Source: a virus. Taken from it: a stretch of 64,000 bases of DNA. Position 1 is the first letter of the stretch. Each line of letters opens with the position of its first letter. Below the pieces are notes generated by a model. The model had not been told where the DNA came from, did not search any database, and worked only from the letters and a program-made list of their open reading frames with translations. Shown here in pieces: positions 27,292 to 64,000 of the stretch. Position numbers and translations under genes: made by a program. The stretch covers positions 27,387 to 91,386 of the IMG/VR virus record IMGVR_UViG_3300024221_000009. One strand, given 5' to 3'.

Positions 27292-29712
27292 ATGGCAAAA
27301 ATGAATAAAATCAGTTCTTTTCAAACTTTTTCTGAAGTAAGAGAGGCTGAAAATGCTGATAAACTACAACAAGAAAATCAAGCTAAAAGATTAGAGCTAA
27401 CAGAAAGAATAGGTAAAATATTAGATGAAATGGAAATAACATCTTTTGAAGACTTAGACGAAGAAGTTAGAGATCAATTAGTAGAAAAAACGTTCGGATT
27501 AGTTAAAGAAGGAGATAAAACAAAAGTTTCTAAAAAAGAAATTAAAATGCATCTGGATATGTTCCAAGCAGGAGACATCGATGGTAATGATTTATCACAA
27601 GCTATTTCTGCAATTATATTCGGAGAAGTAAAAGGACCGGGTATGGAATCTAAAGATTCTGAACAGGTTTCAGAAGCAACTGTTGTTATGGACGCAATAA
27701 ACCCTGATGATAAAGATTTCTTAAAATTCTTAAAAAAGAATAAAGTTAAAGTAATTGACACTGTAAAATCAGGCCCAAGTGGACATCCTGAAATTACAAT
27801 GCAAGGAAAAAGAAAAGATCTTGAAGCAGTATTAGCTGACGGTGAATTAGGATGGGATGATCCTGGTTTAGCAGAATTTATTGAAGAATCAATAAACATT
27901 TCAGAAGCAGTAATAGTTACTGGTAGAAGAGACGCTAAAAAAGTTTTAACAGCATACACTAAATTTTTCCAAAAATATCCAGCATTAGCTGATAGGAGAT
28001 TTGCAGGTTTACATTTAGGAGCAATCAAATCCTTAATGGTTTCTGCATTAACAGATGCTAATTTTCATAGAGAATCAGCAGCGTGCGGAAAGTCTATTAA
28101 AGGAGCAAAGCTTCAACCTGTTTTTATTAAGCCAATGGAATTAAATAAAACAGAAATTAAAATACCTGTTGGTAAAGTAGCATCTATTTTAGATGATAAT
28201 GCATCTCTTATTTCTGGTGCAGCCGGCTTTTCTGGTTTAGGTATTGCTGAAGGAACAGCATTATACTTAGATTCTCTTAAATATGTTAAAGAAGCAGAAG
28301 CAGTTATTGCATGTTTTAATTCTACGTTTGAAAGTGAAGTTACTGACGTAACAGAAGGTAATGCATTTTTAGGAGCTAGAGCTAAGGCTATTGAAGAAGA
28401 TGCTGAAGAATTTGAATTTAACGGTAAAAAATATCCAGTAATTAAAGAATCAGAAGAAGTTACTGAATCAGCCGAACCAAAGTGTAATAATAAAAAAGGA
28501 CATTTATATAAGCAAATTGATAAGGACGGAACGGTAGAATGCGTGCACTGTGGTCTAAGAAATTCATTAAGCGAATCAGAGGTTAATGAAGCTAAATCTT
28601 TTAAAAATACTGAAGATTTTGAAGCATTTTTAAAGGAAATCGATGCTATGCCAGAAAGAGCAGTTAGAAAGATAATGGGTAAAGAATATATCGATACTCC
28701 TGGTTTTTATGAAGATGAAAAGGATGATTATGATGATGTAATTGACTTCATGATTTCAAACATGGGTGCAGATATTTATCACCAATTAGAACAGTGGTGG
28801 GAAAACAATGTTCAAGAATCAGCAGTTACTGAAGCTAAATTTGTAAAAGATTTTGATAAAGATGTTTTAGATGCTGAAACCAAAGCAGATATAACAACTT
28901 ACTACCCTTCTGCTAAATTCTTTATAGGTAAATCAACCCACTTCTTCGGAGAATTAGATAAAAATTTATTTTTTAAAGCATATTATAAAGATTATGTAAA
29001 GAAGGCTGGTGGTAAAATCGATGGTGATTTTAAAATTGTAATGATATATTCTGAAAAAGGTAGAAATTTTGTACCTTTATTTACTAGAGAAGTTACTGAA
29101 TCAGTGGTTACTGAAGCTAAAATTAATTCTGACGAAGAGTTTAAAGAATATGCTACAACTGTTTTACAAAAAGCGTTTGGTGAAGATTATGACGAAGCAA
29201 AAGCAAACGAAGTTATTGATGGTATTTTAGCAAAAGTTGACGGAGATTACGGCGCTGCTGTAGGAATGTTAACATCTTCATTAGGAGAATCAGTAGTTAC
29301 TGAAAAAACATATAATAAAAAGTCTTTAATGAAAGCAATGAAAGCCGATGATGGTATGATACAATTAGGCAATGGTCAAGAATATGTTATCTACGCTTAC
29401 GGTAATGGTAATGATGATAACGACAATATGTGGGGAGATAAATCAATCTTTGCGTTAGACCAAGACGGCGAAGAGCATGAAATTGAATATTCTGATATTG
29501 TAAGTTATAATGAAGCTAACGCTGATGGAACTATTTCAGATGATGAAGACGAAAAAAGAGAAGAACTTTTAAATAGAGTTAAAGAACAAATGGAAGAGCT
29601 ATTAGCATCTGCTGAATTTGATGCTAAAGAAATTGGTGGTTCTTTTAGATCTCCTGGTATTATGTTTGATATTAGAAAACAACTTGATAAGCAAGTTAAA
29701 AAGTTTAAATAA
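27292..29712 (+). CDS. Modular polyprotein A, predicted internal head (cargo) protein with about 10 modules
   Basis: CTS-like SFQTFSEVRE. Recurrent linkers VSE|A, ISE|A, VTE|G, VTE|S, VNE|A, VTE|A (twice), VTE|K and YNE|A separate unrelated modules. Late promoter at 27248. Confidence 0.65.
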   Translation: MAKMNKISSFQTFSEVREAENADKLQQENQAKRLELTERIGKILDEMEITSFEDLDEEVRDQLVEKTFGLVKEGDKTKVSKKEIKMHLDMFQAGDIDGNDLSQAISAIIFGEVKGPGMESKDSEQVSEATVVMDAINPDDKDFLKFLKKNKVKVIDTVKSGPSGHPEITMQGKRKDLEAVLADGELGWDDPGLAEFIEESINISEAVIVTGRRDAKKVLTAYTKFFQKYPALADRRFAGLHLGAIKSLMVSALTDANFHRESAACGKSIKGAKLQPVFIKPMELNKTEIKIPVGKVASILDDNASLISGAAGFSGLGIAEGTALYLDSLKYVKEAEAVIACFNSTFESEVTDVTEGNAFLGARAKAIEEDAEEFEFNGKKYPVIKESEEVTESAEPKCNNKKGHLYKQIDKDGTVECVHCGLRNSLSESEVNEAKSFKNTEDFEAFLKEIDAMPERAVRKIMGKEYIDTPGFYEDEKDDYDDVIDFMISNMGADIYHQLEQWWENNVQESAVTEAKFVKDFDKDVLDAETKADITTYYPSAKFFIGKSTHFFGELDKNLFFKAYYKDYVKKAGGKIDGDFKIVMIYSEKGRNFVPLFTREVTESVVTEAKINSDEEFKEYATTVLQKAFGEDYDEAKANEVIDGILAKVDGDYGAAVGMLTSSLGESVVTEKTYNKKSLMKAMKADDGMIQLGNGQEYVIYAYGNGNDDNDNMWGDKSIFALDQDGEEHEIEYSDIVSYNEANADGTISDDEDEKREELLNRVKEQMEELLASAEFDAKEIGGSFRSPGIMFDIRKQLDKQVKKFK
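28447..29310 (+). repeat. Dispersed 24-bp linker repeats GAATCAGnRGTTAmTGAAGCTAAA between polyprotein modules
   Basis: Copies at 28573, 28816, 29098 and 29287. Variants at 28447, 34247 and 36642. Confidence 0.75.
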
Positions 29713-29720
29713 AAATAGAA

Positions 29721-29758
29721 AAAAAGATGACCTGGATTTTTCCGGGTCAAATCTTTTT
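29721..29758 (+). terminator. Intrinsic terminator after polyprotein A
   Basis: GACCTGGA-TTTT-TCCGGGTC stem with A and T flanks. Confidence 0.65.
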
Positions 29759-29760
29759 AT

Positions 29761-29772
29761 TATATTAGTAGT
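29761..29772 (+). promoter_or_regulatory. Host-type (Bacteroidota -7-like) promoter TATATTAGTAGT
   Basis: The 15-mer TTATATTAGTAGTAT is identical here and at 39498. It is one mismatch from TAnnTTTG. Confidence 0.5.
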
Positions 29773-30075
29773 ATGAAGAAAGCAAAATTATATGAAGAGT
29801 TTATCAACGAAGAAATCTATTTAACATATAGTGAAATCGTAGGTTATCAATTTGATAAGTTTTTAGAATCATATTTTAAACTAAATAAAGATAACAAAAC
29901 AGTTTACGATAAAAAAGAAGATTTTACGTATGGTTTTAGAAAAGGATCTAAAACTGCACATTGGAAATATGATCACGATAATTTCGAATTACACCACAGT
30001 GAAAAAGAATTTCATGTCTTAGGTCTTATAAATTTTTATAAACAAGCATCAAAGGGACATCCCTGGTCTAAATAA
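29773..30075 (+). CDS. Small internal-protein-like cargo with capsid-targeting N-terminus
   Basis: MKKAKLYEEFINE|E resembles the T4 IP CTS MKTYQEFIAE. Confidence 0.55.
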   Translation: MKKAKLYEEFINEEIYLTYSEIVGYQFDKFLESYFKLNKDNKTVYDKKEDFTYGFRKGSKTAHWKYDHDNFELHHSEKEFHVLGLINFYKQASKGHPWSK

Positions 30076-30085
30076 AACATACGCA

Positions 30086-31369
30086 ATGAAAATATTATCA
30101 TTTAAAGATTTCTTAATAGAAAGAGAAAATAAAGAAGTATTAGACTCTAAATTAATTTTAGAAGGTGGGGCAGCAGGTCACATGTCACATCCATTTGATG
30201 AAAAAGATTTGACATTTGCAGATTTTAAAAAGATAGTAACTGCTGGTCTTCAAGGTGAATTAAACTTTGAGGAAGAAGCAACTGAAAAAACGGATGGACA
30301 AAATGTATTTGCAACAGTTCAAGATGGAGAAGTAAAATTTGCCAGAAATAAAACTGAATTAGCAAATCCAATGGACTTGGCTACTTTTAAGAATAAGTTT
30401 GAAGGACATCCAAGTAAATTAGTACAAGATACTTTTCAATTTGCTGCAGAAGATTTAGCAAACTCATTAAATAAATTATCCCCTAAAGATTTAGAAGTTT
30501 TTGATAATGGTAAAAACTGGATGAACATGGAGTTAATTTACTCTAAGAATCCAAACGTTATCTACTATGACCGCGATGTTATTCAATTTCATGGTATAAA
30601 GAAAACTGATGGTGAAGGTAATACTATTGGAGAAGATAACAAACCAGCAAGATCAATTGCGAAAGCAATGCAAGATCTTAAAATTAATGTTGGTAAAACA
30701 TTTACAGTTATCCCACCTCAAATTATTAAATTAGGTAAAGATTTAGAATTTGATAAAAATCAATCTAAATTTATAAAACAAATAGAAGCGTTAAGAGATC
30801 GTTATAAATTAACAGACGCTGATGAAGTTTCTAGATATCATGAAATGTGGTGGAGAGAAACAATAGATACAAATTTCCCTGATTTACAACAAGACTATAA
30901 AGAAGGTTTATTATTAAGATGGGCTTATGGAAATAAGAAGTCTTTAAATATGAGAAGTCTTGCAAAGGAAATAGGAAAAGATGAAGCAGCTTCTGTTAAG
31001 AAATTCGACAAAGAAGATGTTAAAAAGAAATATAAAGAAAACATTAGACCTTTTGAAGATTTATTCTTAGAACTAGGATCTATAATTCTTAAAAATGCTT
31101 CTAATTTTGTAGCAGCAAATCCAGACAAGGAAATGCAAAGATTACATAATCAAATTAGAAGTGAATCAGAAAAAATTAAAAAAGGCGGAGGAGAAGCTCA
31201 AATTGCAAAAGTAGAAGCTGAACTTGCTAGGTTAGAAAGAATTGGTGGTGTAGAATCTATTATACCAACTGAAGGAATAGTCTTTGTATATAAAGGAAAA
31301 ACAATGAAATTAACAGGTACGTTTGCAGCCATTAATCAATTAATGGGAATTATAAAGTACGGAAGATAA
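30086..31369 (+). CDS. ATP-dependent ligase-superfamily nucleotidyltransferase (DUF6267-like) with a CTS-like leader
   Basis: Motif I TEKTDGQN, motif IV TEGIVF and motif V KLTG. The leader MKILSFKDFLIE...LILE| precedes GGAAGHMSHPFD. Confidence 0.65.
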   Translation: MKILSFKDFLIERENKEVLDSKLILEGGAAGHMSHPFDEKDLTFADFKKIVTAGLQGELNFEEEATEKTDGQNVFATVQDGEVKFARNKTELANPMDLATFKNKFEGHPSKLVQDTFQFAAEDLANSLNKLSPKDLEVFDNGKNWMNMELIYSKNPNVIYYDRDVIQFHGIKKTDGEGNTIGEDNKPARSIAKAMQDLKINVGKTFTVIPPQIIKLGKDLEFDKNQSKFIKQIEALRDRYKLTDADEVSRYHEMWWRETIDTNFPDLQQDYKEGLLLRWAYGNKKSLNMRSLAKEIGKDEAASVKKFDKEDVKKKYKENIRPFEDLFLELGSIILKNASNFVAANPDKEMQRLHNQIRSESEKIKKGGGEAQIAKVEAELARLERIGGVESIIPTEGIVFVYKGKTMKLTGTFAAINQLMGIIKYGR

Positions 31370-31379
31370 ATAATATAAT

Positions 31380-33263
31380 ATGGCACTTAAAAAATTAAGA
31401 GAACATTTTCAAGAAACTAATATTAATGAGTTTCATAGATTGTTAAAAAATAGAGTAATGGTTGTTGAAAAAATTTCAGCACCATCTTTTTATGTTAGAA
31501 GAAATGAAGAAAAATTTGAATTTTATAAATCTTCAAAATCTAAACCTCTAACAATAATAGATAGAACTATTATGTCTCTTTACGAAGTTGCCATTAAACA
31601 TATACAAAGTTTAAATCCTAAAAGTAAAAAACAATTACCAGATAATTATAGATTTGGTTTTGAATATTTACCAGAAGAAAAGGTTTCTGAATATGTATAC
31701 ACTAAAATACCTAAAAATACTTTAATATTAACGCACATCCACCAACTAGGTGAAAACGGAAAAGTAAAAAAGACAATTATAGATCCTTTAATTATAAAAA
31801 AATGGGCTACCGTATTAGAAGTACAACAACAAGAAGTTATATTTGACGGAACTTTAGATTCAACTCAAAAAGAAAAGCTTATTAATTTATTAGAAATGAA
31901 TGATAAAGCTTTTTCTGAGGCATTTGACTACGATATAGAAACGGATAAATTAGTTTCTTTCACAAAAGAAATATACAAGATATTTAATATTAATTCAACA
32001 TCAAGCGTTCTTCAAGAGGATTTAGAATCTGAAATAGATGGTTTAGTTTTAAATTTTGCTGAAGGTAAAAAAATACAATCTTATAAATTAGAAGATTTTA
32101 TTAGAAAACCTTTAAATGAAATTAGAGAAGGTTCTCATACATATCAAATAGCAATCGCAGATATATTAGAATATTTTGTTAATTATAATTTTTCAGAAAC
32201 AAATTTAGTTGAAGAAAATGCAGAAAAAAGATATATAGAATTAATCTCAGCAGCATTTAACAAATACGTTAATAAAAACGCAACAAGATATATTGGAGTT
32301 AATTTCCAAAATGCAGAATTTTCTTCTTCTAAATTATTTAATTTAAATACAACATTCATTAAAAACGAAAAAACATTAACACATGTTTCAAATGAAGTTT
32401 TATCAAGTTTATTTAAAATAACATTAGGTACTTTTAGAAAGCATAAAACGAAAGCAACAGATATATTAAATGATGATATGATATCTCAATTAAATAATAT
32501 AGTTGATAAAATCAATGATGTTGTTTTTCTAGAAAAAGCAGACGAAAATTCTATATATAATTATAAGAATTTTATGATGCATAACAATATAAAAAGCGAA
32601 GTAACTTTAAATGAAGCGCTAACTGTTAAGCACGCTGAGCAAGGTAAAGAATTAGTAAATATGTTCGTTGGTAGATTTCAGCCATTCACATTAGGACACG
32701 CCAAAGTTTTAGAAGCAATTCACAAACAAAATGGATATCCAGTTATTGTATTTTTAATTAAAGCAAAATCTAAAAAGAAAGGTGACGAATTTAGAAAACC
32801 TTATTCTGAAGATTTACAAATTAAAATGTTTAAACAAGTTCAAAAGCAATATAAATTCTTAAAAGAAATTATAGTTCTTGATAGAGGTGCAATTGATTAT
32901 ATGTTTAACGAATTAAGACCTAAATACGAGCCAGTACTTTGGGGAACAGGATCAGACAGAATGACTTCTTATGGATATCAAGTAAATAATGATTCTTATA
33001 GAGATCAATTAAATGTAAGATCCGATTTTGGTTTATTTGAAATACCAAGAACAGATAATAATATTTCAGCAACACAAGTAAGAAACGCAATGTTAGACGG
33101 TGATGAATCTTTATTTAAAAAGACTACCCCAAAGGCAATTCATAAAATGTATGATGTTTTAAAGTCTGAACTTGAAAAATCTATGGAGATGGTTGCAGCT
33201 TCTAAAGTTGTATCAGAATCCGTTATGACATTTCAAGAATATATGAATAAATTAAAATCATAA
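31380..33263 (+). CDS. Degenerate ligase-like domain fused to a HIGH-family (cytidylyl/adenylyl) nucleotidyltransferase
   Basis: N-part has VVEKISAP (eroded KxDG) and IDGLVL. After LNE|A comes GRFQPFTLGH...ISATQVR. C-terminal CTS-like VMTFQEYM. Confidence 0.7.
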   Translation: MALKKLREHFQETNINEFHRLLKNRVMVVEKISAPSFYVRRNEEKFEFYKSSKSKPLTIIDRTIMSLYEVAIKHIQSLNPKSKKQLPDNYRFGFEYLPEEKVSEYVYTKIPKNTLILTHIHQLGENGKVKKTIIDPLIIKKWATVLEVQQQEVIFDGTLDSTQKEKLINLLEMNDKAFSEAFDYDIETDKLVSFTKEIYKIFNINSTSSVLQEDLESEIDGLVLNFAEGKKIQSYKLEDFIRKPLNEIREGSHTYQIAIADILEYFVNYNFSETNLVEENAEKRYIELISAAFNKYVNKNATRYIGVNFQNAEFSSSKLFNLNTTFIKNEKTLTHVSNEVLSSLFKITLGTFRKHKTKATDILNDDMISQLNNIVDKINDVVFLEKADENSIYNYKNFMMHNNIKSEVTLNEALTVKHAEQGKELVNMFVGRFQPFTLGHAKVLEAIHKQNGYPVIVFLIKAKSKKKGDEFRKPYSEDLQIKMFKQVQKQYKFLKEIIVLDRGAIDYMFNELRPKYEPVLWGTGSDRMTSYGYQVNNDSYRDQLNVRSDFGLFEIPRTDNNISATQVRNAMLDGDESLFKKTTPKAIHKMYDVLKSELEKSMEMVAASKVVSESVMTFQEYMNKLKS

Positions 33264-33310
33264 ATAAATAAAGAATATATAATCTTATAATATAAAACAA
33301 AATAAAAGTC

Positions 33311-35521
33311 ATGGATAAATCACACTTTAATCAAGATGATAGAGTAGATGAAGGGAAAATAACAATAAAAAGACGTTATACTGAAAACTACCCTGCAAAA
33401 ACTGTTGGTAAATCAGCAAAAATAAGAAACAAAATGTTGGAAGCAATTTCGGACGGGGCTATTACCCAAGAAGAATTTGATTCTATCATAGCAGAATTAT
33501 CATCTGATTCAAAAAGATGGTTATCTCGTAATTCTAGGTTATTTAATATTACAGAGGCTGGAATAACATTAACAGGGTTAGGTAGAAAGATTTTATCTCA
33601 AATTACAGTAAATGAAAAAACAGAAAAGAATCCAGAAATATGGGTTCCTGGAAAATTTGATAAAGAAGTTTCTAAATTATCAGCTGATGAATTAACACTA
33701 GACAATATAAAAAAATTATCAAAAAAACATAGAGTATTTTTACAAGATGCAATAGCGTATGTTGAATATAGCTTCGATGTTGATATTGTAGAAAATAAAG
33801 AAAATAATATGAAAACAAAATTAGTATTTGAATCTTTCGGAGATTTTGTAAACTCATTAGATAAAAATAATGAAGAATTAAACGAAGGCACTAGAGGCCA
33901 ATTCGGAATGATTGATAAAAAAGGAAATATACAGTCAGTATATATGCATTATGATTCATATCCTGAAAACATTCTACCATTAATAAAAAGAGGTTACGGA
34001 AACTCTAAAAAAGTACAAGCAGTTATTGATAGAGGAGATACTTCTGGATTAGATAAAACAGTTGATACTATGAATTTCTATGAAGATGGTAGAAAGCCAA
34101 CTTCAGGTAAAAAAGCAGACATTGCACGTTATATTAAAAAAGCAGCTGATGATGGTGGAGCAGAATACATCTATTTATATGATGAGTCTGATAAAACTTG
34201 GTACATGGTTGATGTTTATGGAGACATGCAATTAGTTCCTGCATTTGAATCAGTAATTAATGAAGCTGTAAACGCAACTGCTTATATTAAAGCTGGTAAA
34301 TTAGGTTATAATGATCAATTCTTAGCAAAGAGATCTTTATCATGGACATTATCAGTTGACTTAGGTCTAAAAGCATCTGATGAATTTGTCGGACCATGGT
34401 TAGGATTCGATTATGTATCATTATATGCTATTGGTAAAAAAGGAGGAACAATTATTGATGATGCCTTAACTGGTAAATATACTTATGACGAATTAAAAGC
34501 AGCAGCAGCTGATTTTTTAGGTATTAAAGAATCAGAAGAAGCTTTAGGTGAATCAGAAGATACTGAACTTAATGAAGCATTTAAATCTTCTAAATTAAGA
34601 AATTTAGTAAATATGGATCAATCACAACGTGATGGATATGGTAAAGCAAGAAATTTAGCAGCTGCTATTTATGGATTATCAAAACTAAAATTAGATAAAA
34701 TTGAAGATTCTTCTTTAATTGATGTAGATCCTAAAGAAGCTTATAAAAAATATCAAAACAATAGAGACTATTTAGTTTTTTATATAGTAGACAACGAAAA
34801 AGAAAATGAATACAGCAAAGGTTCATTTACATCATTAATAAAACCAGGTATTTTAGCTTTAACCAGAGGAAAAGACTTTTTATCAGTTCAATATGTTCAA
34901 TCTAGAAATAGATCAGTTGATCGTACTTTAGGAAAAGATGATGGTAATGCAATTGGTGGTAATAAAAGATATTCTGGATATGATGCATCGGGTATTTCTT
35001 CAGTTGTAAGAGCTTCTAAATTAGCAGACAGAGCAATTGTAATTGATATTGTTAATGGTGGCGAAACTTCAAAAGAAGAAAGAAACGAAAGAGCAAGAGC
35101 AAAAGAAGGAGCTTTAGCTTTTAAATCTGACGCAGACTTTAAGAAAGCTAACAAGGCAAGATACCAAGAAATCTTATCAACTAAAGCTTCTAAGTTACCT
35201 CTTGATAAAATGGTTAATGACGCTATTGATGATTTAGGAAATCAAATTAAAGATGGTCTTAAGGCTAATAAAAAGACAGAATACGGAGAGCTTAAAATTG
35301 GAGAAAATTCTAAAGGTAGAGCAGTTAAAATCACAGATGCTTCAAACCACATGGGTAGAATCTTATCTGATTATCAAAGATATGTTGAATACATGGTAAA
35401 AGCAGAAGAAGAAAAAGGTAGAGATTATTCATCAGGATATTACGAAAAGAATTCAAAACAATACGCTAAAGATATTAAAGATGCAGTTAAAAAAATACCT
35501 ACGTTCGATTACGCTTGGTAA
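33311..35521 (+). CDS. Modular polyprotein B, predicted internal head (cargo) protein
   Basis: Linkers VDE|G, VNE|K, LNE|G, INE|A and LNE|A. Internal CTS-like MKTKLVFESFGDFVN at 33809. Late promoter at 33274. Confidence 0.65.
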   Translation: MDKSHFNQDDRVDEGKITIKRRYTENYPAKTVGKSAKIRNKMLEAISDGAITQEEFDSIIAELSSDSKRWLSRNSRLFNITEAGITLTGLGRKILSQITVNEKTEKNPEIWVPGKFDKEVSKLSADELTLDNIKKLSKKHRVFLQDAIAYVEYSFDVDIVENKENNMKTKLVFESFGDFVNSLDKNNEELNEGTRGQFGMIDKKGNIQSVYMHYDSYPENILPLIKRGYGNSKKVQAVIDRGDTSGLDKTVDTMNFYEDGRKPTSGKKADIARYIKKAADDGGAEYIYLYDESDKTWYMVDVYGDMQLVPAFESVINEAVNATAYIKAGKLGYNDQFLAKRSLSWTLSVDLGLKASDEFVGPWLGFDYVSLYAIGKKGGTIIDDALTGKYTYDELKAAAADFLGIKESEEALGESEDTELNEAFKSSKLRNLVNMDQSQRDGYGKARNLAAAIYGLSKLKLDKIEDSSLIDVDPKEAYKKYQNNRDYLVFYIVDNEKENEYSKGSFTSLIKPGILALTRGKDFLSVQYVQSRNRSVDRTLGKDDGNAIGGNKRYSGYDASGISSVVRASKLADRAIVIDIVNGGETSKEERNERARAKEGALAFKSDADFKKANKARYQEILSTKASKLPLDKMVNDAIDDLGNQIKDGLKANKKTEYGELKIGENSKGRAVKITDASNHMGRILSDYQRYVEYMVKAEEEKGRDYSSGYYEKNSKQYAKDIKDAVKKIPTFDYAW

Positions 35522-35522
35522 T

Positions 35523-37004
35523 ATGAAAACAATGTATACATCATTTAGCGAATTTTCAAGAGGGATTAAAGAAAACATTTCACCAGAAAGTATTGGAGGA
35601 ATGGGAGATGTTATATTACCGAATGGTGATGAACTAGGTTCTGGCGATATTCCTTCTGAAGAAGATGATGAAAATAAAGAAAAAATAAATACAAAATCTA
35701 TGGATTTTAATAGTTTTATAAACAAATCAACGGTTAGTAAATTAGTCATTGAGAAATCAGCAACAGATACTCTAGCGGATGATGTTTCTGGAGAATTATA
35801 TATTGCAAAACTTAAAGGCAAGTCAGCTACTATTAAAGCAACGACTACGACAAAGACATGGGATGATGGAGTCCCGGTATTAAAGTATTTAGCAAGAGGT
35901 AAAAGTAAATCAATGTCTTTTGATTTATATCAAAGACCTTTTCAAGTGGTACACGACTATGCACATGGCTGGTGGTACTTCACAGATGGTGGAAAATGGT
36001 ACGGATTGCACGTAAGCGACGGTTATAGTGAAGCTGCTGATTTACCATTCGATATGCAAATTCCAGAAAACAAAATACAAGAAGGTGTTATGTCTGACAT
36101 TCACCAAATGATAGGTAATCATAAAACTTTTGATTCATTTCAAAAAGAATTCTTTAAAGAATATGGAGATAATAAAGCTATGAAAAAAACCAAAGACTTT
36201 TTAGAATGGCTAGAAGCTTTATATTCAGATTCACAATATGCAGTATCTGAGGCAAGACCAGGTACTTACACGTACCAAATGGATAGTGAAGGAAATACTA
36301 GAAAAGTATTACCGCCATATTATGGTAATTCAGAACTTCATGATAAATCAAAAGAACTATTTAAAAAACCATGGAAAAAGCTTAGTGATAAACAACAAGA
36401 TGAAGTTTTAGCAGCCTTTGAAATAGTTGAAGCAAGATCAATTGCAAAAATACAAAAAGAATATGGAAGTGTAGTAACTGATATGAAAGATCTTGTTAAA
36501 GATTATGTAAAAATGTCAGATGATAATTCTGAAAAAGCTAAGACAAGACAATTACTTATAGATTTAACTTCTAAGAAAAAATCATTAATGTCAGAATTAG
36601 ATGACGCAGTAGGTATCAAAGATTTAAATATTGAATTAGCAGAATCAGTAAATGAATCAATGAGTTCTTACTATTTCACGAGTCCTAGCGAATACGGTCA
36701 ATTTGCAAATGAAGCACCTGCAAAGGGTGAAACTAAATATTTAGTAATGGCTACTAATAAAGCAAACTTTAATGGTCAAGAAATTAGACTAGAAGGTGGA
36801 GTTAGATTTGGTTCAACCTCTAAAAAAGAAATTTTAGGAGTTTTTGATAAAGAATCAGAAGCTTTAACATTTTATAAATCAGCTATGAAAAAACCAGAAG
36901 GAACATTTGTTTCTTTCTCAATGGGAACGGTTGTCGGTGAAACTAAATTTAGATCGCAATATACTGAAATTCAAGGATATTTAGCAACTGCAAAGGTAAA
37001 ATAA
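35523..37004 (+). CDS. Modular polyprotein C, predicted internal head (cargo) protein
   Basis: ATG 35523, one base after the upstream stop, gives CTS-like MKTMYTSFSEFSRGIKE. Linkers VIE|K, IQE|G, VSE|A, IVE|A and VNE|S. Confidence 0.62.
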   Translation: MKTMYTSFSEFSRGIKENISPESIGGMGDVILPNGDELGSGDIPSEEDDENKEKINTKSMDFNSFINKSTVSKLVIEKSATDTLADDVSGELYIAKLKGKSATIKATTTTKTWDDGVPVLKYLARGKSKSMSFDLYQRPFQVVHDYAHGWWYFTDGGKWYGLHVSDGYSEAADLPFDMQIPENKIQEGVMSDIHQMIGNHKTFDSFQKEFFKEYGDNKAMKKTKDFLEWLEALYSDSQYAVSEARPGTYTYQMDSEGNTRKVLPPYYGNSELHDKSKELFKKPWKKLSDKQQDEVLAAFEIVEARSIAKIQKEYGSVVTDMKDLVKDYVKMSDDNSEKAKTRQLLIDLTSKKKSLMSELDDAVGIKDLNIELAESVNESMSSYYFTSPSEYGQFANEAPAKGETKYLVMATNKANFNGQEIRLEGGVRFGSTSKKEILGVFDKESEALTFYKSAMKKPEGTFVSFSMGTVVGETKFRSQYTEIQGYLATAKVK

Positions 37005-42279: not shown

Positions 42280-42746
42280 TGGCAAACATAGATAACGAAT
42301 GTAAAGACTTAGAAGTAAAAGACTTTTATGATCAGTCAAACACACACTTAGCAGATATCATGGAAAACCAAAAAAAGATGCAAGAGCAGACTTATGGTTT
42401 TAACTTTGATGATATGACAATTAGAGAAATTATGGATTTCTGGCACTGTAATACACATGCAGTTGTTGATGAAATTCACGAAATGACCGATGCTCTTGGT
42501 GGTATTAAAGATGGTTCTGGAAATGCAGTATGGAAATACTGGAAAAAAGACTTTACAAAATACGATACATTAAAGATTTCTGACATGTCTGAAGGAGACA
42601 AAAAAGAATTGTATATGGAATGGGTAGATATTCTACACTTCTTTATTAATTACGCCGCTTCAATCGGGCTAGATGCTAAAACAGCATATAACTATTATTT
42701 CGCAAAAGCAGAAGAAAATGTTAACCGTCAGAAAAATAACTATTAA
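42279..42746 (+). CDS. dCTP/dUTP pyrophosphatase (T4 gp56-like)
   Basis: NEC, DEIHEM..ALG, AVWKYWK, ISDMS..D..E, EWVDILHF and RQKNNY all match the T4 gp56 pattern. Confidence 0.88.
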   Translation: MANIDNECKDLEVKDFYDQSNTHLADIMENQKKMQEQTYGFNFDDMTIREIMDFWHCNTHAVVDEIHEMTDALGGIKDGSGNAVWKYWKKDFTKYDTLKISDMSEGDKKELYMEWVDILHFFINYAASIGLDAKTAYNYYFAKAEENVNRQKNNY

Positions 42747-44143
42747 TGATATTAGATATCGAACAAAGAGATAGGGATGTCATTGTTTCCTATTACGATA
42801 CTGAAGGTAAAGTAGCATATAAACAATATCCAATTGCTCAATTCCAGAATTGGTATATATGTGATGAAAAAGAAAAAGGAGTTAGTACTGAATTTAAAAA
42901 CTGGGATGGAAGGCCTGTTAAATTAGGAAACGCTAGACAATTCAATAAATTTTCATTAAATTATTTTATAGACGGATTACCTGAAAAAGATAAAGAAGAA
43001 ATTTTAGCATATAATATGCCTAAAACCTATTTTGTCGATATTGAAACCGAAATTGTAGATGGATTTCCTAAAGCTGAAGAAGCTAAAAGTAGAATTTTAT
43101 CATTCTCAATTATTACACCAGAACGTAAAGCAATTGTATTAGGACTGGAAGATATGGCTCCTGATAAAATTAAAAAGATCAATGATGATACTAATGAGTA
43201 TTTCAAAGACTTTGATCAGGATTGGGAATTTAAGTATCATAAGTTTAATACAGAATATGATATGGTATATACTTTTTTAATGAAGTTTTTACCTAAATTT
43301 CCAATGATGACTGGCTGGAACTTCATAAACTATGACTGGCAATATATCGTAAATAGATGTAAAAGATTACAAATAGATGTTGCTGAGGTAGGTATGACTA
43401 AGAAGGTTGATAGAAACGATTCTAGACCTTTACATATTGGTATTTTAGATTACATGCAGTTATATGATAAATATGATCGTAGTGTGAAAGTAAAAGAATC
43501 TAATGCACTTGATTATGTTTCTGGTCAAGTATTAAACGTAAAGAAGATTAAATACTCAGGCTCATTACAGGATTTATATAGAGATAATTTCGTTAAATAC
43601 ATTTATTATAACGTGGTCGATTCAGTGCTGGTATACTATATTGATCAAAAGTTAAAATCAATGGAAGTTCTTTTAACTCTTGCAAATATAACAAGAATGC
43701 CGCTATATAAAGCAGCTTCTCCAGTGGCAGTCACAGAATCTTTAATGGCAAGAAAGTTAGCAGAACAAGGAATGCGAATAGGAACTGAAAGAAGAGAAGA
43801 TAGTGAAAAGAATTCTCAATACGCCGGAGCATTTGTTAAAGAACCTATTGTTGGATATTATGAAGGTGTAAGTGCATTTGACTTTGCTTCCCTATACCCA
43901 TCTATAATGAGACAATTTAATATTTCGCCAGATGCTTATATAGAGCAGGTATATAAGACTGAGGTTGCGGAAAGACGTAAAGACAAAGACGTTATTGTTT
44001 GTGATAATGGTGTAGTTTATAAAAAAGATGATAGTATTCTTAAAAAGATATTAACAGATTTATATTCTCAGAGGAAACAATATAAAAAAATGTCGTATGA
44101 TTATTTTACTAAGGCTGATCAACTTAAAAAAAGATTAAGATAA
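42746..44143 (+). CDS. Family B DNA polymerase, N-terminal subunit (exonuclease, palm motif A, first fingers helix; gp43A)
   Basis: ExoI DIET, ExoII GWNFINYD, ExoIII YNVVD, YAGAFV and DFASLYPSIM. It stops after the helix ending RKQYKK and lacks motifs B and C. Confidence 0.9.
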   Translation: MILDIEQRDRDVIVSYYDTEGKVAYKQYPIAQFQNWYICDEKEKGVSTEFKNWDGRPVKLGNARQFNKFSLNYFIDGLPEKDKEEILAYNMPKTYFVDIETEIVDGFPKAEEAKSRILSFSIITPERKAIVLGLEDMAPDKIKKINDDTNEYFKDFDQDWEFKYHKFNTEYDMVYTFLMKFLPKFPMMTGWNFINYDWQYIVNRCKRLQIDVAEVGMTKKVDRNDSRPLHIGILDYMQLYDKYDRSVKVKESNALDYVSGQVLNVKKIKYSGSLQDLYRDNFVKYIYYNVVDSVLVYYIDQKLKSMEVLLTLANITRMPLYKAASPVAVTESLMARKLAEQGMRIGTERREDSEKNSQYAGAFVKEPIVGYYEGVSAFDFASLYPSIMRQFNISPDAYIEQVYKTEVAERRKDKDVIVCDNGVVYKKDDSILKKILTDLYSQRKQYKKMSYDYFTKADQLKKRLR

Positions 44144-60259: not shown

Positions 60260-61855
60260 ATGGCAGGATTCGTAGATAGAAATGGACCATTAAGCTACAA
60301 CAAGAAATCATTTACACTGAGAGATCAGCTAAAAAAGCTAAGCTCTTTTGGTATGTATTATGATGATTTAGTACTTAGGCAATCACAGGCAATAGGTCCG
60401 ATTGAAGACGCAATAGGTTTTGGTCAAATAAACCAAATGGGAGTAGACTCAGATGATATGTATGGAGCGTTTGCAGCTCTTTCAATGTCTGATACAACAA
60501 TGCGTAAGAATATACCGTTCTTCGATCAAAATTACGAAAGTAAGCGTAATGAATTAAGAGCATTTTCAACGTATGATGAAATCGAAGATATTTTAGATAT
60601 TCTTTGTGATGAATCAGTTGTTTATGATAATAAAAACTTTTTTGCAACTCCTGAACTTATAGGAATGGATGTTAGTGAAGAAGTTGAAAAATATTTACAA
60701 AAAGCATATCGAGATATTTATCAATATTTTGGATTTAATCAAGACCAATCGGCATGGTACTTTTATAGAAAGTTCTTAGTTGATGGTTATCTTTCTTTTG
60801 AAATAGTTTATAACCCTGAGCAAACTCAAATTATTGGATTTAAAGAAATTGATCCTATAACATTAATTCCAGGATATAATAAAACGGATGGTAAGAAAGT
60901 ATGGACTCAATTTAAAGACGATCCAGTTAAAGAGAGAGTTCTATATGACTCTCAGATCATTTATATTTCTTATTCATCAATTACCACAGCCTCGAGAGTA
61001 AGTTACTTAGAGAGACTTATAAGGTCATTTAATTTAATGAGAATTATGGAACACACTAGAGTAATCTGGGCTGTTACTAATTCTTCTTATAGAATGAAAT
61101 TTATAATCCCAGTTGGTGGTAAATCTAAAACAAGAGCAAAACAATCACTTGCTCAGTTAATGAATAACTATAAAGAAGTTGTAGATTTTGATTGGGAATC
61201 TGGAAGTATGCATACTGACGGTAAACCAATGTTACAATTTAATAAAGAATATTGGTTACCTTCGAAAGATGGAGAACAGCCGGAGATTGAAACACTAGGA
61301 GGAGAAGGTCCTGAATTATCAGATACAGAGGCTCTTAAATATTTCTCAGATAAATTAAAAATGGTTTCTAAAATACCATTTAATAGATTCATGTATGAAG
61401 ATGGTGGTGGAGATTTCAATTTAGCTGCCGATGGTATGATTAGAGATGAGATCAAGTTTGGTAAATTTATTAAACGTTTAAGATCTACATTCCAAGAAAT
61501 TTTAGTTAAACCATTATACATTCAAATGTGTTTAAAATTTCCTGAATTTGAAAATGATGCATCGTTTAAAACACAAATATCTCTACAATTCCTTGAAGAG
61601 AATATGTTTGCTGAATTAAAACAAATGGAAATCATGGAACGTAGAGTAGAATTTATTAGTTCTGTAAAAGATTCTCTAGTTGAAACAAACCCAGAAACAA
61701 TGGAAGAAGATTACTACTTTGATTCAGACTTCTTAGTTGATAGATATTTAAAACTAAGTCCAGATGATAAAGCAGCTAATGCAGCTTATAAAGCAAGAAA
61801 GGCTGCTAAAGATGCAGAAGAACCTGAAGTTGACCCAATGGACGCTGGAATGTAA
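60260..61855 (+). CDS. Portal protein (gp20-like)
   Basis: FLVDG, SYLER, LMRIME, YWLP..DG..EIETL.G and F.KFI.RLR..F motifs. Confidence 0.92.
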   Translation: MAGFVDRNGPLSYNKKSFTLRDQLKKLSSFGMYYDDLVLRQSQAIGPIEDAIGFGQINQMGVDSDDMYGAFAALSMSDTTMRKNIPFFDQNYESKRNELRAFSTYDEIEDILDILCDESVVYDNKNFFATPELIGMDVSEEVEKYLQKAYRDIYQYFGFNQDQSAWYFYRKFLVDGYLSFEIVYNPEQTQIIGFKEIDPITLIPGYNKTDGKKVWTQFKDDPVKERVLYDSQIIYISYSSITTASRVSYLERLIRSFNLMRIMEHTRVIWAVTNSSYRMKFIIPVGGKSKTRAKQSLAQLMNNYKEVVDFDWESGSMHTDGKPMLQFNKEYWLPSKDGEQPEIETLGGEGPELSDTEALKYFSDKLKMVSKIPFNRFMYEDGGGDFNLAADGMIRDEIKFGKFIKRLRSTFQEILVKPLYIQMCLKFPEFENDASFKTQISLQFLEENMFAELKQMEIMERRVEFISSVKDSLVETNPETMEEDYYFDSDFLVDRYLKLSPDDKAANAAYKARKAAKDAEEPEVDPMDAGM

Positions 61856-62297: not shown

Positions 62298-64000
62298 ATG
62301 AGCAAAACTGACTTATTAATCTTAGAAAGATCTGCTTCGGGTTTAGAATTTAAAGAAGAAAACGGAGTATATGTATTAGAAGGAGTTTTTGGCGAATTAG
62401 ATACGAAGAATAGAAACAACCGTATTTACACTGCTGAAGAGTATCTACCACAGATCGAATCATTACAAGATAAAATCAAAGCATCTAAACTTTTAGGTGA
62501 ATTAGATCATCCACAAAATTTTGACGTTTCTTTAAAGAATGTATCACACATTATTGAAGAAATAACATACGATGAAGCAAATAAGCAAATTAAAGGACGT
62601 ATTAGATTATTAGATACTGACGCTGGTCGTCAAGCTAAAGCACTTGTTGATGCTGGAGTACCACTTCAAATTTCTTCAAGAGCCGCTGGTGCTGTAGAAT
62701 CTAATGGTAAAGTAAAGATCAAACAACTATTCACTTATGATTTAGTTGCAGATCCTGGATTTGAAAACGCAGAATTAAAGAGAGTTAACGAATCTTTTGG
62801 ATTTGAAAACAACTCTGATATTTTAATCTATGAAATCGGTGGAAGCTCAAATTTAAACGAAGAAACAACAAAAATCGAAAATAAACAAACAGAAACAATG
62901 GCAGAATCTAAATTTATCACTGTTGAAGATTTTAATAAATACTCACAATATCTTTCTGAAGAAATGAAAAGTATTAAAGAATCTATGGCAGCTGCTAAAG
63001 AAAATGGCAATGATACAGAAATAGAAAATCTAAAAGAATATGCTGGATATTTAGCAGAAAAATTAGATCAGTCTATTAATACAGCCGAAGAATTAGCAAC
63101 AAAAACGGATCAATCAATCCAATACACAGAAAGTATTGCAGAAAAATTAGATCAATCAATTCAATACTCTGAGCATATCGCTGAAGGTGTTGATTCAATT
63201 AAAGAGTACACTAACTACTTAGCAGAATCTTATAACGAAGGAGCAACAACTCACGAAGGTTTATTAAAGTATATCGACTATTTAAAAGAAAACTTAGAAA
63301 AAGTTACAGAATACGCAGAATACGTTGCTGAAACTGTAAATACCAATTTAATTTTAGAAGATGAAGCTGGTAAAGAAGTTGAAGAAATCGAAGATGAAAA
63401 CGATGCAAAGGATGTTACTGAACCTACAGTTGATGCTGAAGAAAATGAATTAGAACATGGAGCTGAAGTTAAAGATGTTGAAAAAGATCTAGAACTTGAA
63501 GGTGAAGGAGACGCTGAAGGAGAGGAAATCTCAGAAGAAGCTGAAGCTGGTAAAGAAGTTGAAGAAATCGAAGACGAAAACGACGCTAAAGAAGTAGCAA
63601 ACGACGTTGAAGAGCCAGAAAACGTAGAAGCTGATTTAGAGCTTGACGGTGAAGGAGATGCTGAAGGAGAAGAAATCTCAGAAGAAACTGAAGCAGTTGA
63701 AGAAACTGAAGCAGTTGAAGAAACTGAAGAAGTTGAAGAAACTAAAGCAGTTGAAGAAACTGAAGAAGTTGAAGAAACTGAAGAAGTTGAAGAAACTAAA
63801 GCGGTTGAAGAAACTGAAGAGGTAGAAGCAGTTGAAGAAACTGAAGAAGAAGATCAAGAATTCCATGAATCTACAGAAACTGAAGCAGTTAAAGAGGAAG
63901 AAGTTGAAGAGACTGAAGAAGTTGAAGAATCTAACGAGCTTCAAACTTACAAAAATGAAATAACTGAAAAGTTACAATCTTTAATTAATAAAACAACTGA
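62298..64000 (+). CDS. Prohead protease (gp21-like) fused to an acidic scaffold (gp22-like); 3'-truncated and missing from the ORF track
   Basis: Manual translation from ATG 62298: NRNNRIY, GELDHP, VSH, ISSRAAG, YDLVADPGF. The frame stays open through Glu-rich repeats to the window end. Confidence 0.88.
   Translation, partial: MSKTDLLILERSASGLEFKEENGVYVLEGVFGELDTKNRNNRIYTAEEYLPQIESLQDKIKASKLLGELDHPQNFDVSLKNVSHIIEEITYDEANKQIKGRIRLLDTDAGRQAKALVDAGVPLQISSRAAGAVESNGKVKIKQLFTYDLVADPGFENAELKRVNESFGFENNSDILIYEIGGSSNLNEETTKIENKQTETMAESKFITVEDFNKYSQYLSEEMKSIKESMAAAKENGNDTEIENLKEYAGYLAEKLDQSINTAEELATKTDQSIQYTESIAEKLDQSIQYSEHIAEGVDSIKEYTNYLAESYNEGATTHEGLLKYIDYLKENLEKVTEYAEYVAETVNTNLILEDEAGKEVEEIEDENDAKDVTEPTVDAEENELEHGAEVKDVEKDLELEGEGDAEGEEISEEAEAGKEVEEIEDENDAKEVANDVEEPENVEADLELDGEGDAEGEEISEETEAVEETEAVEETEEVEETKAVEETEEVEETEEVEETKAVEETEEVEAVEETEEEDQEFHESTETEAVKEEEVEETEEVEESNELQTYKNEITEKLQSLINKTT
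63363..63930 (+). repeat. Coding repeats in the scaffold: a 180-bp-period duplication plus 18-bp tandem repeats
   Basis: EAGKEVEEIEDENDAK starts at both 63363 and 63543. GAAGAAACTGAAG(C/A)AGTT (EETEAV/EETEEV) tandem units run from about 63681. Confidence 0.85.

What the first reader, a model, noticed from the sequence alone, without database searches (positions are those of the whole stretch)
33881..34246. Embedded module whose predicted cleavage recreates the N-terminus of a stand-alone phage family
Seen: LNE|GTRGQFGMIDKKGNIQSVYMHYDSYPE...GDTSGL...AEYIYLY...W. From recall, this resembles a widespread stand-alone phage family starting M-[GSA]-T-R with a YxHxDGYP motif and ending EYxY...W. Cutting after LNE would give GTR at the N-terminus, as Met removal does in the stand-alone form. 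This is the best internal evidence that the linkers are real processing sites, and it suggests a free N-terminus matters for function.
Basis: partly seen in the sequence, partly recalled or inferred. Interest (0 to 1): 0.7.

Follow-up and report, generated by a model that had tools for sequence, protein, structure and literature searches.

The report
Protease-released cargo module in phage polyprotein
A large uncultured marine T4-like phage carries a small protein, which other phages make as a free-standing gene, inside a 736-residue chain; the flanking sequences look like cutting sites for the phage's head-maturation protease, and a cut there would give the protein its usual first residue, but no cutting has been observed.

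Summary
This scan reached the same reading earlier on other genomes (e1-5862802, e1-5862824, e1-5787714).

- **Family match.** Residues 193-318 of the 736-aa ORF (33311-35521) match the stand-alone phage family phrog_1987 from profile position 2 (E 5e-18).
- **Junction.** A search of 1.84 billion proteins gave about 45 free-standing relatives, all starting M-[S/A/G]-T-R. It also gave about 96 embedded copies, all with [L/I/V/M]-x-E directly before [G/A/S]-T. These copies sit in at least 21 unrelated upstream contexts.
- **Protease.** The window encodes an S77 (T4 gp21-type) prohead protease that keeps the catalytic His and Ser motifs.
- **Leaders.** Neighbouring genes, and a 'fossil' leader just before the module, resemble the T4 capsid-targeting sequence.
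- **Site avoidance (new here).** Embedded modules have almost no internal [L/I]-x-E (8 in 90 copies, 46 expected). Stand-alone relatives have 78 in 38 copies.
- **Cassette differences (new here).** Two close orthologues (96% and 85% identical) differ by whole units that begin and end exactly at x-N-E| sites.

Cleavage, packaging and the module's function are not shown. The fold has no solved relative. That a free N-terminus is needed is plausible, but the embedded copies may descend from a single capture.

The parts
33311..35521 (+). 736-aa polyprotein ORF that holds the module
   Evidence: No Pfam, NCBIfam or PHROG family matches outside the module.
33311..33352 (+). N-terminal leader, residues 1-14 (MDKSHFNQDDRVDE|G), a candidate propeptide ending in V-D-E
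   Evidence: In relatives the next unit (KIQLKRKYTENYPA...) is preceded by VNE| or TNE| at the same column. pLDDT is below 50. It resembles the T4 CTS only weakly.
33353..33616 (+). Unit 1, residues 15-102, ending ITVNE|
   Evidence: Conserved as a block in relatives. An indel starts exactly after VNE102. The site lies in a low-pLDDT segment, 93-121.
33617..33793 (+). Unit 2, residues 103-161, ending DIVE|. It is absent from most relatives.
   Evidence: The A2 alignment shows the unit as an insertion bounded by VNE102| and about IVE161|.
33794..33886 (+). Fossil capsid-targeting-like leader, residues 162-192 (NKENN-MKTKLVFESFGDFVNSLDKNNEELNE|). The internal ATG (M167) is at 33809.
   Evidence: It resembles the T4 IPII/IPIII leader MKTYQEFIAE|A and the IPI leader MKTFKEF...ITE|A. 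It also resembles the short-leader single-gene forms P0055, P0058 and P0062. pLDDT is below 50.
33884..33889 (+). Predicted scissile junction E192|G193 (GAA|GGC)
   Evidence: P3 is L/I/V and P1 is E in all of about 96 embedded copies. P1' is G in 73, A in 10 and S in 9 of the first count.
33887..34246 (+). Folded core of the phrog_1987-family module, residues 193-312
   Evidence: phrog_1987 E 5.5e-18. The AF2 model has pLDDT 94.4 and pTM 0.88. There is no internal [LIVM]xE.
34247..34264 (+). C-terminal linker ESVINE|, residues 313-318
   Evidence: HSP ends pile up at 319. Cassette indels in L015 and L005 start exactly here. The linker length after PAFES varies among relatives.
34265..34576 (+). 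Unit 4, residues 319-422, ending DTELNE|
   Evidence: It is missing as a whole from the 96%-identical orthologue L015 and present in L005. The same unit follows the module in P0045.
34577..35518 (+). C-terminal unit, residues 423-736 (AFKSSKLRNL...DYAW)
   Evidence: Conserved as a block in P0011, P0014, P0015, P0037, P0039 and P0050. It has no known family and no match in cultured phages.
62298..63998 (+). S77 (T4 gp21-type) prohead protease, fused to a scaffold-like C-terminal part. The ORF runs off the window.
   Evidence: PF03420, 46.6 bits against a cut-off of 27. phrog_207 E 1.6e-34. GELDHP and ISSRAAG align to T4 gp21 H85 and S140. The tblastn hits span protease plus scaffold genes in cyanophages.
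60260..61855 (+). Portal protein
   Evidence: phrog_213 E 5.5e-69. The nearest record is the 462-kb uncultured phage LR756500.1, at 58.7% identity.
27292..33263 (+). Four upstream genes with T4-CTS-like leaders (27292, 29773, 30086, 31380). The first is another linker-punctuated polyprotein.
   Evidence: The leaders are MAKMNKISSFQTFSEVRE|, MKKAKLYEEFINE|, MKILSFKDFLIE| and MALKKLREHFQETNINE|. ES[AV]V[TN]E linkers recur in 27292-29712.
35523..37004 (+). Downstream gene with a CTS-like leader MKTMYTSFSEFSRGIKE|

Best explanation
The 736-aa ORF is most likely a capsid-cargo polyprotein of a large marine T4-like phage.

Proposed mechanism:
1. The ORF is made late and taken into the prohead core.
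2. The phage's S77 (gp21-type) prohead protease cuts it after the Glu of [L/I/V]-x-E linkers.
3. One product is a ~126-residue protein (residues 193-318) of the phrog_1987 family. Its new N-terminus, G-T-R, equals the Met-excised N-terminus ([S/A/G]-T-R) of the free-standing family members.
4. The pieces probably leave the capsid with the DNA and act at the very start of the next infection.

Shown here: the homology, the residue-exact junction, the presence of the protease, the leader similarity, the avoidance of internal sites, and the cassette-wise variation.

Inferred: cleavage, packaging, ejection, and any need for the free N-terminus.

The module's biochemical role is unknown. My guess is an early host-takeover or counter-defence factor. 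Its conserved T2, Y19, H21 and D23 cluster beside the N-terminus at one end of the first beta-hairpin.
For: 1. Family and register. phrog_1987 matches at profile positions 2-117. Stand-alone CDSs start one codon before the match in five inspected phages. All 46 recognised stand-alone representatives start M[SAG]T.

2. Junction. About 96 embedded copies all carry [LIVM]xE|[GAS]T with zero spacing. Their upstream neighbours fall in at least 21 unrelated clusters and their downstream neighbours in at least 32. All 25 IMG/VR loci show the same junction.

3. Enzyme. An S77 protease lies in the window, with His and Ser motifs aligned to T4 gp21 H85 and S140. gp21-type proteases of T4, phiKZ and SPN3US all cut C-terminal to Glu after a short motif (PMC5694885, PMC10052503, PMC9026906). 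In the T4 CTS, residues 8 and 10 (P3 and P1) govern processing (PMC9026906). T4 gp23 reads FLTE|AEIG at residue 65.

4. Targeting. T4 IPII and IPIII start MKTYQEFIAE|A. The window has MKKAKLYEEFINE|, MKILSFKDFLIE| and, directly before the module, MKTKLVFESFGDFVN...ELNE|. Single-gene 'leader plus module' forms also exist: P0055, P0058 and P0062.

5. Site avoidance. [LI]xE occurs 8 times inside 90 embedded cores, against 46 +/- 6 in shuffles. It occurs 78 times in 38 stand-alone cores, against 53 in shuffles. At columns where stand-alone proteins often have [LI]xE, embedded ones have [LI]xK.

6. Cassettes. L015 (96% identical) lacks residues 319-422 exactly between INE| and LNE|. L005 (85% identical) has an extra 39-aa unit ending TNE| at the same joint.

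7. Predicted flexibility. All five predicted sites (14, 102, 192, 318, 422) lie in segments with pLDDT below 50 in the full-length model, while the module itself is confident.

8. Capsid protein of relatives. Relatives that carry the module encode a gp23-like capsid protein that starts MNLLNE|AEIK.
Against: - No protein-level data exist. Nothing shows that the ORF is in virions or is cut.
- The ORF's own first 14 residues resemble the T4 CTS only weakly.
- The cluster lies among replication and nucleotide-sugar genes, not beside the head genes about 25 kb downstream.
- The T4 late-promoter motif TATAAATA is not enriched: 18 found, 18.2 expected.
- Embedded and leader forms lie on one side of one branch (98% SH-aLRT). 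The many junctions and the site avoidance are therefore not independent events.
- The full-length model is poor (pLDDT 55, 44% of residues below 50), so the linker-flexibility argument is weak.
- Folded domains can resist a protease anyway, so avoidance is suggestive rather than required.
Confidence: 0.7

Rival explanations
1. The junction is a frozen accident of cassette shuffling. The site is cut, but the free native N-terminus has no functional importance. One ancestral fusion placed the linker Glu where the Met codon was. Later shuffling moved the module together with its upstream linker, which kept the spacing at zero.
For: Embedded and leader forms are separated from 45 of 46 stand-alone forms by a single branch, so one origin is not excluded. 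Cassette indels carry the linker with the unit. Small P1' residues (G/A/S) suit both Met excision and gp21-type proteases, so the match in residue type could be coincidental (PMC10052503 notes a Ser preference at P1').
Against: P2 and P4-P8 have drifted widely, yet no indel has arisen between P1 and T2 in about 96 copies. By contrast, the C-terminal linker varies by 3-10 residues. The five leaderless multi-domain relatives all keep the module at the extreme N-terminus. T2 is at least 90% conserved. By hairpin register it lies opposite H21 (inference).
Confidence: 0.35
2. The ORF is an uncut multidomain protein. The [LIV]-x-E strings are only a favoured flexible linker, and the coincidence with stand-alone starts reflects an ordinary domain boundary.
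For: Domain boundaries usually coincide with the ends of single-domain homologues. No cleavage data exist. The gene is not next to the head genes.
Against: This reading does not explain four observations: Glu is invariant at P1 with an aliphatic P3, which is the T4-type specificity; the motif is purged about 6-fold from inside embedded modules only; T4-CTS-like leaders head the cluster's genes; and an S77 protease is encoded in the same genome.
Confidence: 0.1
3. The module is made mainly from an internal start at M167 (ATG 33809) as a separate 'leader plus module (plus downstream units)' protein. In that case the upstream 166 residues and the rest are two overlapping products rather than one polyprotein.
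For: The MKTKLVFESFGDFVN... segment looks like a complete gene start with a CTS. Upstream of it is an A-rich stretch similar to the one before the annotated start. A sigma-70-like match lies at 33780-33808.
Against: Promoter-like matches are no more frequent than in shuffles: 22 found, 16.8 +/- 4.4 expected. The frame is continuous and conserved across orthologues. This reading would still need the LNE| cut, so it adds to the main explanation rather than replacing it.
Confidence: 0.1

Closest known systems
T4 internal proteins IPI, IPII, IPIII and Alt: a capsid-targeting sequence plus gp21 processing
   Same: Short N-terminal leaders of the MKT..EF..E type end in [L/I]-x-E. An S77 gp21-type protease is present. 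Cleavage after Glu would release the mature cargo, which is ejected with the DNA (PMC9026906, PMC3012670). The single-gene 'leader plus module' relatives (P0055, P0062) have exactly this form.
   Different: Here several unrelated cargo units are strung into one chain, with repeated internal sites. T4 cargo proteins have one leader each. One unit has free-standing homologues in phages that lack this system. Nothing has been tested experimentally.
Polyvalent proteins of phages and conjugative elements (Iyer, Burroughs, Anand, de Souza, Aravind 2017; PMC5512222)
   Same: Many unrelated domains sit in one polypeptide that is predicted to be packaged and delivered at invasion, then released as separate units by proteolysis. 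Solo versions of the domains also occur.
   Different: Those proteins are proposed to be processed by embedded peptidase domains (zincin-like MPTase). Here no peptidase domain was found in the ORF, and cutting would be done in trans by the prohead protease at a uniform short linker. The units are much smaller (40-314 aa), and none matches the domains listed there.
Multiply processed head and ejection proteins of giant phages (phiKZ gp175, 201phi2-1, SPN3US gp245)
   Same: These are gp21-related proteases that cut after Glu at a three-residue motif, with several sites in one substrate (PMC5694885, PMC10052503).
   Different: In SPN3US, apart from the protease's own self-cleavage, all identified cuts remove N-terminal propeptides, and the extra sites lie within those propeptides (PMC10052503). 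Here each piece looks like an independent folded cargo. The motif is [L/I/V]-x-E as in T4, not A-x-E or S/A/G-x-E.
phrog_1987, an uncharacterised stand-alone phage protein family of about 105-150 aa
   Same: The conserved core is the same: T2, Y19-x-H21-x-D23, G-D, F/Y, E-Y-x-Y and W. The length is the same, and the mature N-terminus would be the same.
   Different: This copy is embedded, has lost internal [LI]xE motifs, and carries a C-terminal PAFES-x-x-N-E tail.

Membership tests
phrog_1987 (stand-alone phage family, function unknown) | Significant profile match over nearly the whole profile | tested here: met
   E 5.5e-18, 66.5 bits, protein residues 193-302 against profile positions 2-117 of 128.
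phrog_1987 (stand-alone phage family, function unknown) | Conserved residues T2, Y19, H21, D23, G50, Y65, Y96 and W105 | tested here: met
   All are present in the window copy. D23 and Y96 are invariant and the others at least 90% conserved in 52 sequences.
phrog_1987 (stand-alone phage family, function unknown) | Encoded as a free-standing gene that starts M-[S/A/G]-T | tested here: not met
   The window copy is internal to a 736-aa ORF. It is a homologue in a different architecture.
T4-type CTS / gp21-processed capsid cargo | The genome encodes an S77 prohead protease with catalytic His and Ser | tested here: met
   PF03420 scores above its cut-off. GELDHP and ISSRAAG align to T4 gp21 H85 and S140. 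The third catalytic residue was not covered by the alignment.
T4-type CTS / gp21-processed capsid cargo | An N-terminal targeting leader similar to MKTYQEFIAE | tested here: inconclusive
   The ORF's own start, MDKSHFNQDDRVDE, is a weak match. The internal leader before the module and the neighbouring genes' leaders are close matches.
T4-type CTS / gp21-processed capsid cargo | An [L/I]-x-E motif at the boundary of the mature protein | tested here: met
   LNE|G at 190-192 and INE|A at 316-318. The motif is conserved in about 96 relatives.
T4-type CTS / gp21-processed capsid cargo | Actual cleavage and presence in the virion | not testable with these tools
   This needs proteomics or biochemistry. 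Indirect support comes from site avoidance and cassette indels.
Polyvalent proteins (PMC5512222) | Several unrelated domains in one polypeptide of a phage | tested here: met
   There are at least five units with independent presence or absence among relatives.
Polyvalent proteins (PMC5512222) | An embedded processing peptidase (MPTase or similar) | tested here: inconclusive
   No Pfam, NCBIfam or PHROG family matches any unit outside the module. A very divergent peptidase cannot be excluded.
Ntn (N-terminal nucleophile) hydrolases | The nucleophile Thr, Ser or Cys is the first residue of the mature chain | tested here: not met
   The mature residue 1 is G, A or S, mostly G in embedded copies. 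The conserved Thr is residue 2. The fold search gave no Ntn match, which is inconclusive on its own.

The most novel reading that the evidence does not exclude
Proteolysis acts as an activation switch. The module would need its alpha-amine, together with T2, H21 and D23 at the end of the first hairpin, to form a catalytic or ligand-binding site. It would then be inert while it is part of the polyprotein in the producing cell. It would become active only after the prohead protease frees its N-terminus inside the capsid. That would let the phage carry a potentially self-harmful effector safely and deliver it already active. More broadly, these marine jumbo phages would have a plug-and-play cassette system, with at least 20-30 unit families, for building injected effector sets.
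Probability: 0.2. Interest if true: 0.8.

Novelty: new variant of a known kind. Interest (0 to 1): 0.6.

Why it matters
Loading of capsid cargo through a short targeting tag and the head protease is known from T4, one protein at a time. If the present reading holds, an abundant group of marine T4-like jumbo phages extends that system to strings of small, exchangeable cargo units cut apart at a uniform linker.

- **A way to find injected proteins.** The linker pattern plus internal-site avoidance gives a sequence-only way to spot injected proteins in uncultured phages. These are prime candidates for host-takeover and anti-defence functions.
- **A natural design template.** It offers a template for multi-protein delivery with T4-type vectors.
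- **A prediction for an uncharacterised family.** For a widespread phage protein family it yields one concrete, testable prediction: that its exact N-terminus matters.

Tried and rejected
**Searches for the module's function (all blank)**
- Pfam and NCBIfam on the module, on 52 family members and on the other four units gave nothing. PHROGs on the other units gave nothing.
- The only Pfam line for the whole ORF, Toxin_BN_H, scored 19.8 bits against a cut-off of 52.2, over a helical stretch. I rejected it as chance.
- A PDB sequence-profile search gave only chance-level rows.
- Fold searches of the confident model gave no convincing match:
  - Foldseek against PDB: best E 0.12.
  - VIA-align wide: best Z 4.6.
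  - Second look at Foldseek's matches: best Z 4.9.
- The recurring weak rows are Brix-domain proteins, the class II aaRS anticodon-binding domain and the C-terminal domain of PolG2. At these scores this is only a lead, not a fold assignment.
- BFVD and the ESM Atlas returned only uncharacterised phage proteins.

**Other tests**
- The T4 late-promoter motif TATAAATA is not enriched in the window.
- Promoter and terminator scans of the ORF are at chance level.
- HSP end-points across 81 polyproteins are only about 2-fold enriched near [LIVM]xE, because HSP ends are fuzzy.
- The C-terminal unit has no tblastn match in cultured phages, so no published virion proteome could be linked to it.
- Laid contigs from four seawater runs showed no joints or indels in the ORF, so no cassette variant was seen in those runs. 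The gene's presence in RNA libraries is not proof of transcription.
- A search for 'phrog_1987' in papers found nothing. Two literature searches for prohead-protease polyproteins found no description of this arrangement.

Full report
**1. What is there**

It lies inside a 736-aa ORF, 33311-35521.

The window is the last 64 kb of a 91-kb IMG/VR virus record, 30% G+C, which CheckV rates 28% complete. The window holds T4-type replication genes: gp32-like SSB, primase, helicases, UvsX, a split family-B polymerase, and RNR. It also holds tail-fibre-like genes, a portal and a head-maturation protease.

The nearest portal is in the 462-kb uncultured 'huge phage' record LR756500.1, at 58.7% identity. 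Other 630-735-kb records, Sphingomonas phage PAU and the Lak phages follow. Public runs that hold the gene are seawater metagenomes and metatranscriptomes.

**2. The recalled family is real and the register is exact**

PHROGs gives phrog_1987 (unknown function, 128 positions) at E 5.5e-18. Protein residues 193-302 align to profile positions 2-117, so G193 takes the place of the residue after the initiator Met.

tblastn finds 87 phage records: T4-like cyanophages and Streptococcus siphophages. In the five annotated CDSs that I opened, the match starts at codon 2 every time.

A full HMMER pass over 1.84 billion representatives gives 862 hits at E<=1e-3. The best 150 fall into two classes:
- **Free-standing proteins** of 105-150 aa. 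All 46 recognised start M-[S/A/G]-T.
- **Embedded copies** in proteins of 113-1036 aa, at offsets from 16 to 636.

In every embedded copy with an intact boundary, the residue before [G/A/S]-T is Glu and P3 is L, I, V or M. The six apparent exceptions in the first count were regex mis-hits. A stricter count gives 96 such junctions. Their upstream neighbours fall into at least 21 unrelated sequence clusters and their downstream neighbours into at least 32. The 25 IMG/VR loci fetched by DNA show the same junction.

**3. Is the junction a protease site?**

- **The enzyme is present.** ORF 62298-63998 (it runs off the window) passes the Pfam cut-off for Peptidase_S77, the T4 gp21 family, and matches phrog_207. 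In a pairwise alignment its GELDHP and ISSRAAG line up with T4 gp21 H85 and S140.
- **The specificity fits.** The prohead proteases of T4, phiKZ, 201phi2-1 and SPN3US all cut C-terminal to Glu after a short motif (PMC5694885, PMC10052503). In the T4 targeting sequence, residues 8 and 10 (P3 and P1) control processing, and Asp at position 10 blocks it (PMC9026906). Read from the T4 record, T4 gp23 has FLTE|AEIG at residue 65 and gp24 has LLRE|S at residue 10. That these are the cut sites is established knowledge.
- **The leaders fit.** T4 IPII and IPIII begin MKTYQEFIAE|A, and IPI begins MKTFKEF...ITE|A. The window genes at 29773, 30086, 27292, 31380 and 35523 begin MKKAKLYEEFINE|, MKILSFKDFLIE|, MAKMNKISSFQTFSEVRE|, MALKKLREHFQETNINE| and MKTMYTSFSEFSRGIKE|. 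The 26 residues just before the module read MKTKLVFESFGDFVNSLDKNNEELNE|.
- **Single-gene intermediates exist.** Relatives include short 'leader plus module' proteins (P0055, P0058, P0062), which have exactly the architecture of a T4 internal protein.

The likely history is free-standing gene, then leader-tagged cargo gene, then concatenation into polyproteins.

**4. Two new tests**

*Site avoidance.* If the embedded modules meet a protease that cuts after [L/I]-x-E, internal copies of that motif should be selected against.
- In 90 embedded cores the motif occurs 8 times (0.08 per 100 aa). Shuffling each sequence gives 46 +/- 6.
- In 38 stand-alone cores it occurs 78 times (1.94 per 100 aa), against 53 +/- 6 in shuffles.
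- At alignment columns where stand-alone proteins often read [L/I]-x-E, the embedded ones read [L/I]-x-K.

Composition does not explain this, because the shuffles keep composition. Shared descent inflates the counts, but the contrast is large.

*Cassette variation.* Two close orthologues differ from the window protein by whole units.
- L015 (96% identical) goes straight from ...PAFESVVNE| to AFKSSKL.... It lacks residues 319-422 exactly.
- L005 (85% identical) has an extra 39-residue unit, SYDYDE...SETNE|, inserted at the 318|319 joint.
- More distant relatives lack residues 103-161, again from VNE| to IVE|.
- Units seen in the neighbouring polyprotein 27292-29712, such as the Cys-rich ...PKC.NKKGHLYKQIDKDGTV unit, follow the module in other phages.

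The units are therefore independent and exchangeable, and they are bounded by the linkers.

**5. Structure**

With a 52-sequence alignment, the module folds with pLDDT 94.4 and pTM 0.88. The order of elements is a beta-hairpin (4-9, 14-20), two helices, a long loop, strand-helix, a second hairpin, and a short C-terminal helix.

No solved structure matches convincingly: Foldseek E >= 0.12 and VIA-align Z <= 4.9. The weak rows recur on Brix domains and the class II aaRS anticodon-binding domain, which I keep only as a lead. BFVD returns uncharacterised proteins of large myoviruses such as GAP32, Campylobacter PC5 and fHe-Yen9-04.

From the hairpin register (inference, not measured), T2 lies opposite H21, and the residue-1 amine lies next to residues 22-23. 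The conserved T2, Y19, H21 and D23 would then form one patch that includes the N-terminus.

The full-length model is poor (pLDDT 55). All five proposed sites nevertheless fall in segments below 50, while the module stands out as folded. About 44% of residues are below 50, so this agreement is only mildly informative.

**6. Does the free N-terminus matter?**

For:
- The N-terminal junction never has a spacer, while the distance from the conserved W to the next cut varies from about 19 to 30 residues.
- Five leaderless long relatives (P0160, P0128, P0145, P0134, P0139) all keep the module at the extreme N-terminus and extend only C-terminally.
- Residue 1 is always G, A or S, which suits Met excision in the free-standing forms.

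Against:
- A quick maximum-likelihood tree puts 45 of 46 stand-alone proteins on one side of a 98% branch and all embedded and leader forms on the other. One capture event could account for the junction, and later shuffling may simply carry the linker along.

I rate 'cut at E192|G193' at about 0.7, and 'the free N-terminus is functionally required' at about 0.5.

**7. Function**

The function is unknown. By analogy with T4 IPI (an inhibitor of a restriction system) and Alt, an early host-takeover or counter-defence role is the best guess (PMC3012670, PMC9026906).

In three Streptococcus siphophages the free-standing copy sits between the large terminase and portal genes. In one of them a toxin-antitoxin pair occupies the same slot. 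So those copies are probably expressed late, with the head genes.

**8. Novelty**

Three things are already known: T4 CTS-based cargo loading, multiple gp21-type cuts in giant-phage head proteins, and the 'polyvalent protein' concept with embedded peptidases (PMC5512222). I found no description of cargo polyproteins cut in trans by the prohead protease into units equivalent to free-standing genes.

This scan had already reached the same reading on other genomes. The present window adds the site-avoidance test, the cassette indels between near-identical orthologues, and the link to the huge-phage clade.

I classify this as a new variant of a known kind, with interest 0.6.

Noticed in passing
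window 62298-63998 (runs off the window): The S77 prohead protease is part of an ORF of at least 567 aa. The ORF's tblastn matches in cyanophages span both the protease and the scaffold genes, which suggests a protease-scaffold fusion.
   Followed up: partly
window 42746-44143 and 48623-49825: The family-B DNA polymerase is split into two ORFs (phrog_262 positions 76-495 and 490-843). About 4.5 kb separates them, holding both RNR subunit genes and two small ORFs.
   Followed up: no
window 27292-37004: Six consecutive genes start with T4-CTS-like leaders. They include a 427-aa protein with a ligase-like EKTDG motif (30086) and a 627-aa protein with a C-terminal cytidylyltransferase-like domain (31380, phrog_3041). 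This looks like a candidate packaged-enzyme cluster.
   Followed up: partly
L015:7425-9323 and L005:7416-8981, against window 34265-34576: Orthologues that are 96% and 85% identical differ by the presence or absence of whole units bounded exactly by xNE|. This is very recent cassette gain or loss.
   Followed up: yes
L030, L031, L032 (gp23-like capsid genes of relatives that carry the module): The capsid protein starts MNLLNE|AEIKNTWAPIISE|ATGINE|S, with three [LI]xE sites in the first 25 residues. The first resembles T4 gp23 FLTE|AEIG, but it would leave a propeptide of only 6 residues.
   Followed up: partly
window 33935-33972: In all four seawater runs that were laid, this 38-nt stretch (the SVYMHYDSYPEN motif) is shared with other contigs of higher depth that continue differently on both sides. 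Other copies of the module therefore co-occur in the same samples.
   Followed up: no
L003, L035, L036 (Streptococcus phages Javan638, phi-SsuNJ2_rum, phiD12): The free-standing homologue always lies between the large terminase and portal genes. In phi-SsuNJ2_rum a toxin-antitoxin pair is inserted in the same slot.
   Followed up: partly
They may serve DNA or surface sugar modification.
   Followed up: no
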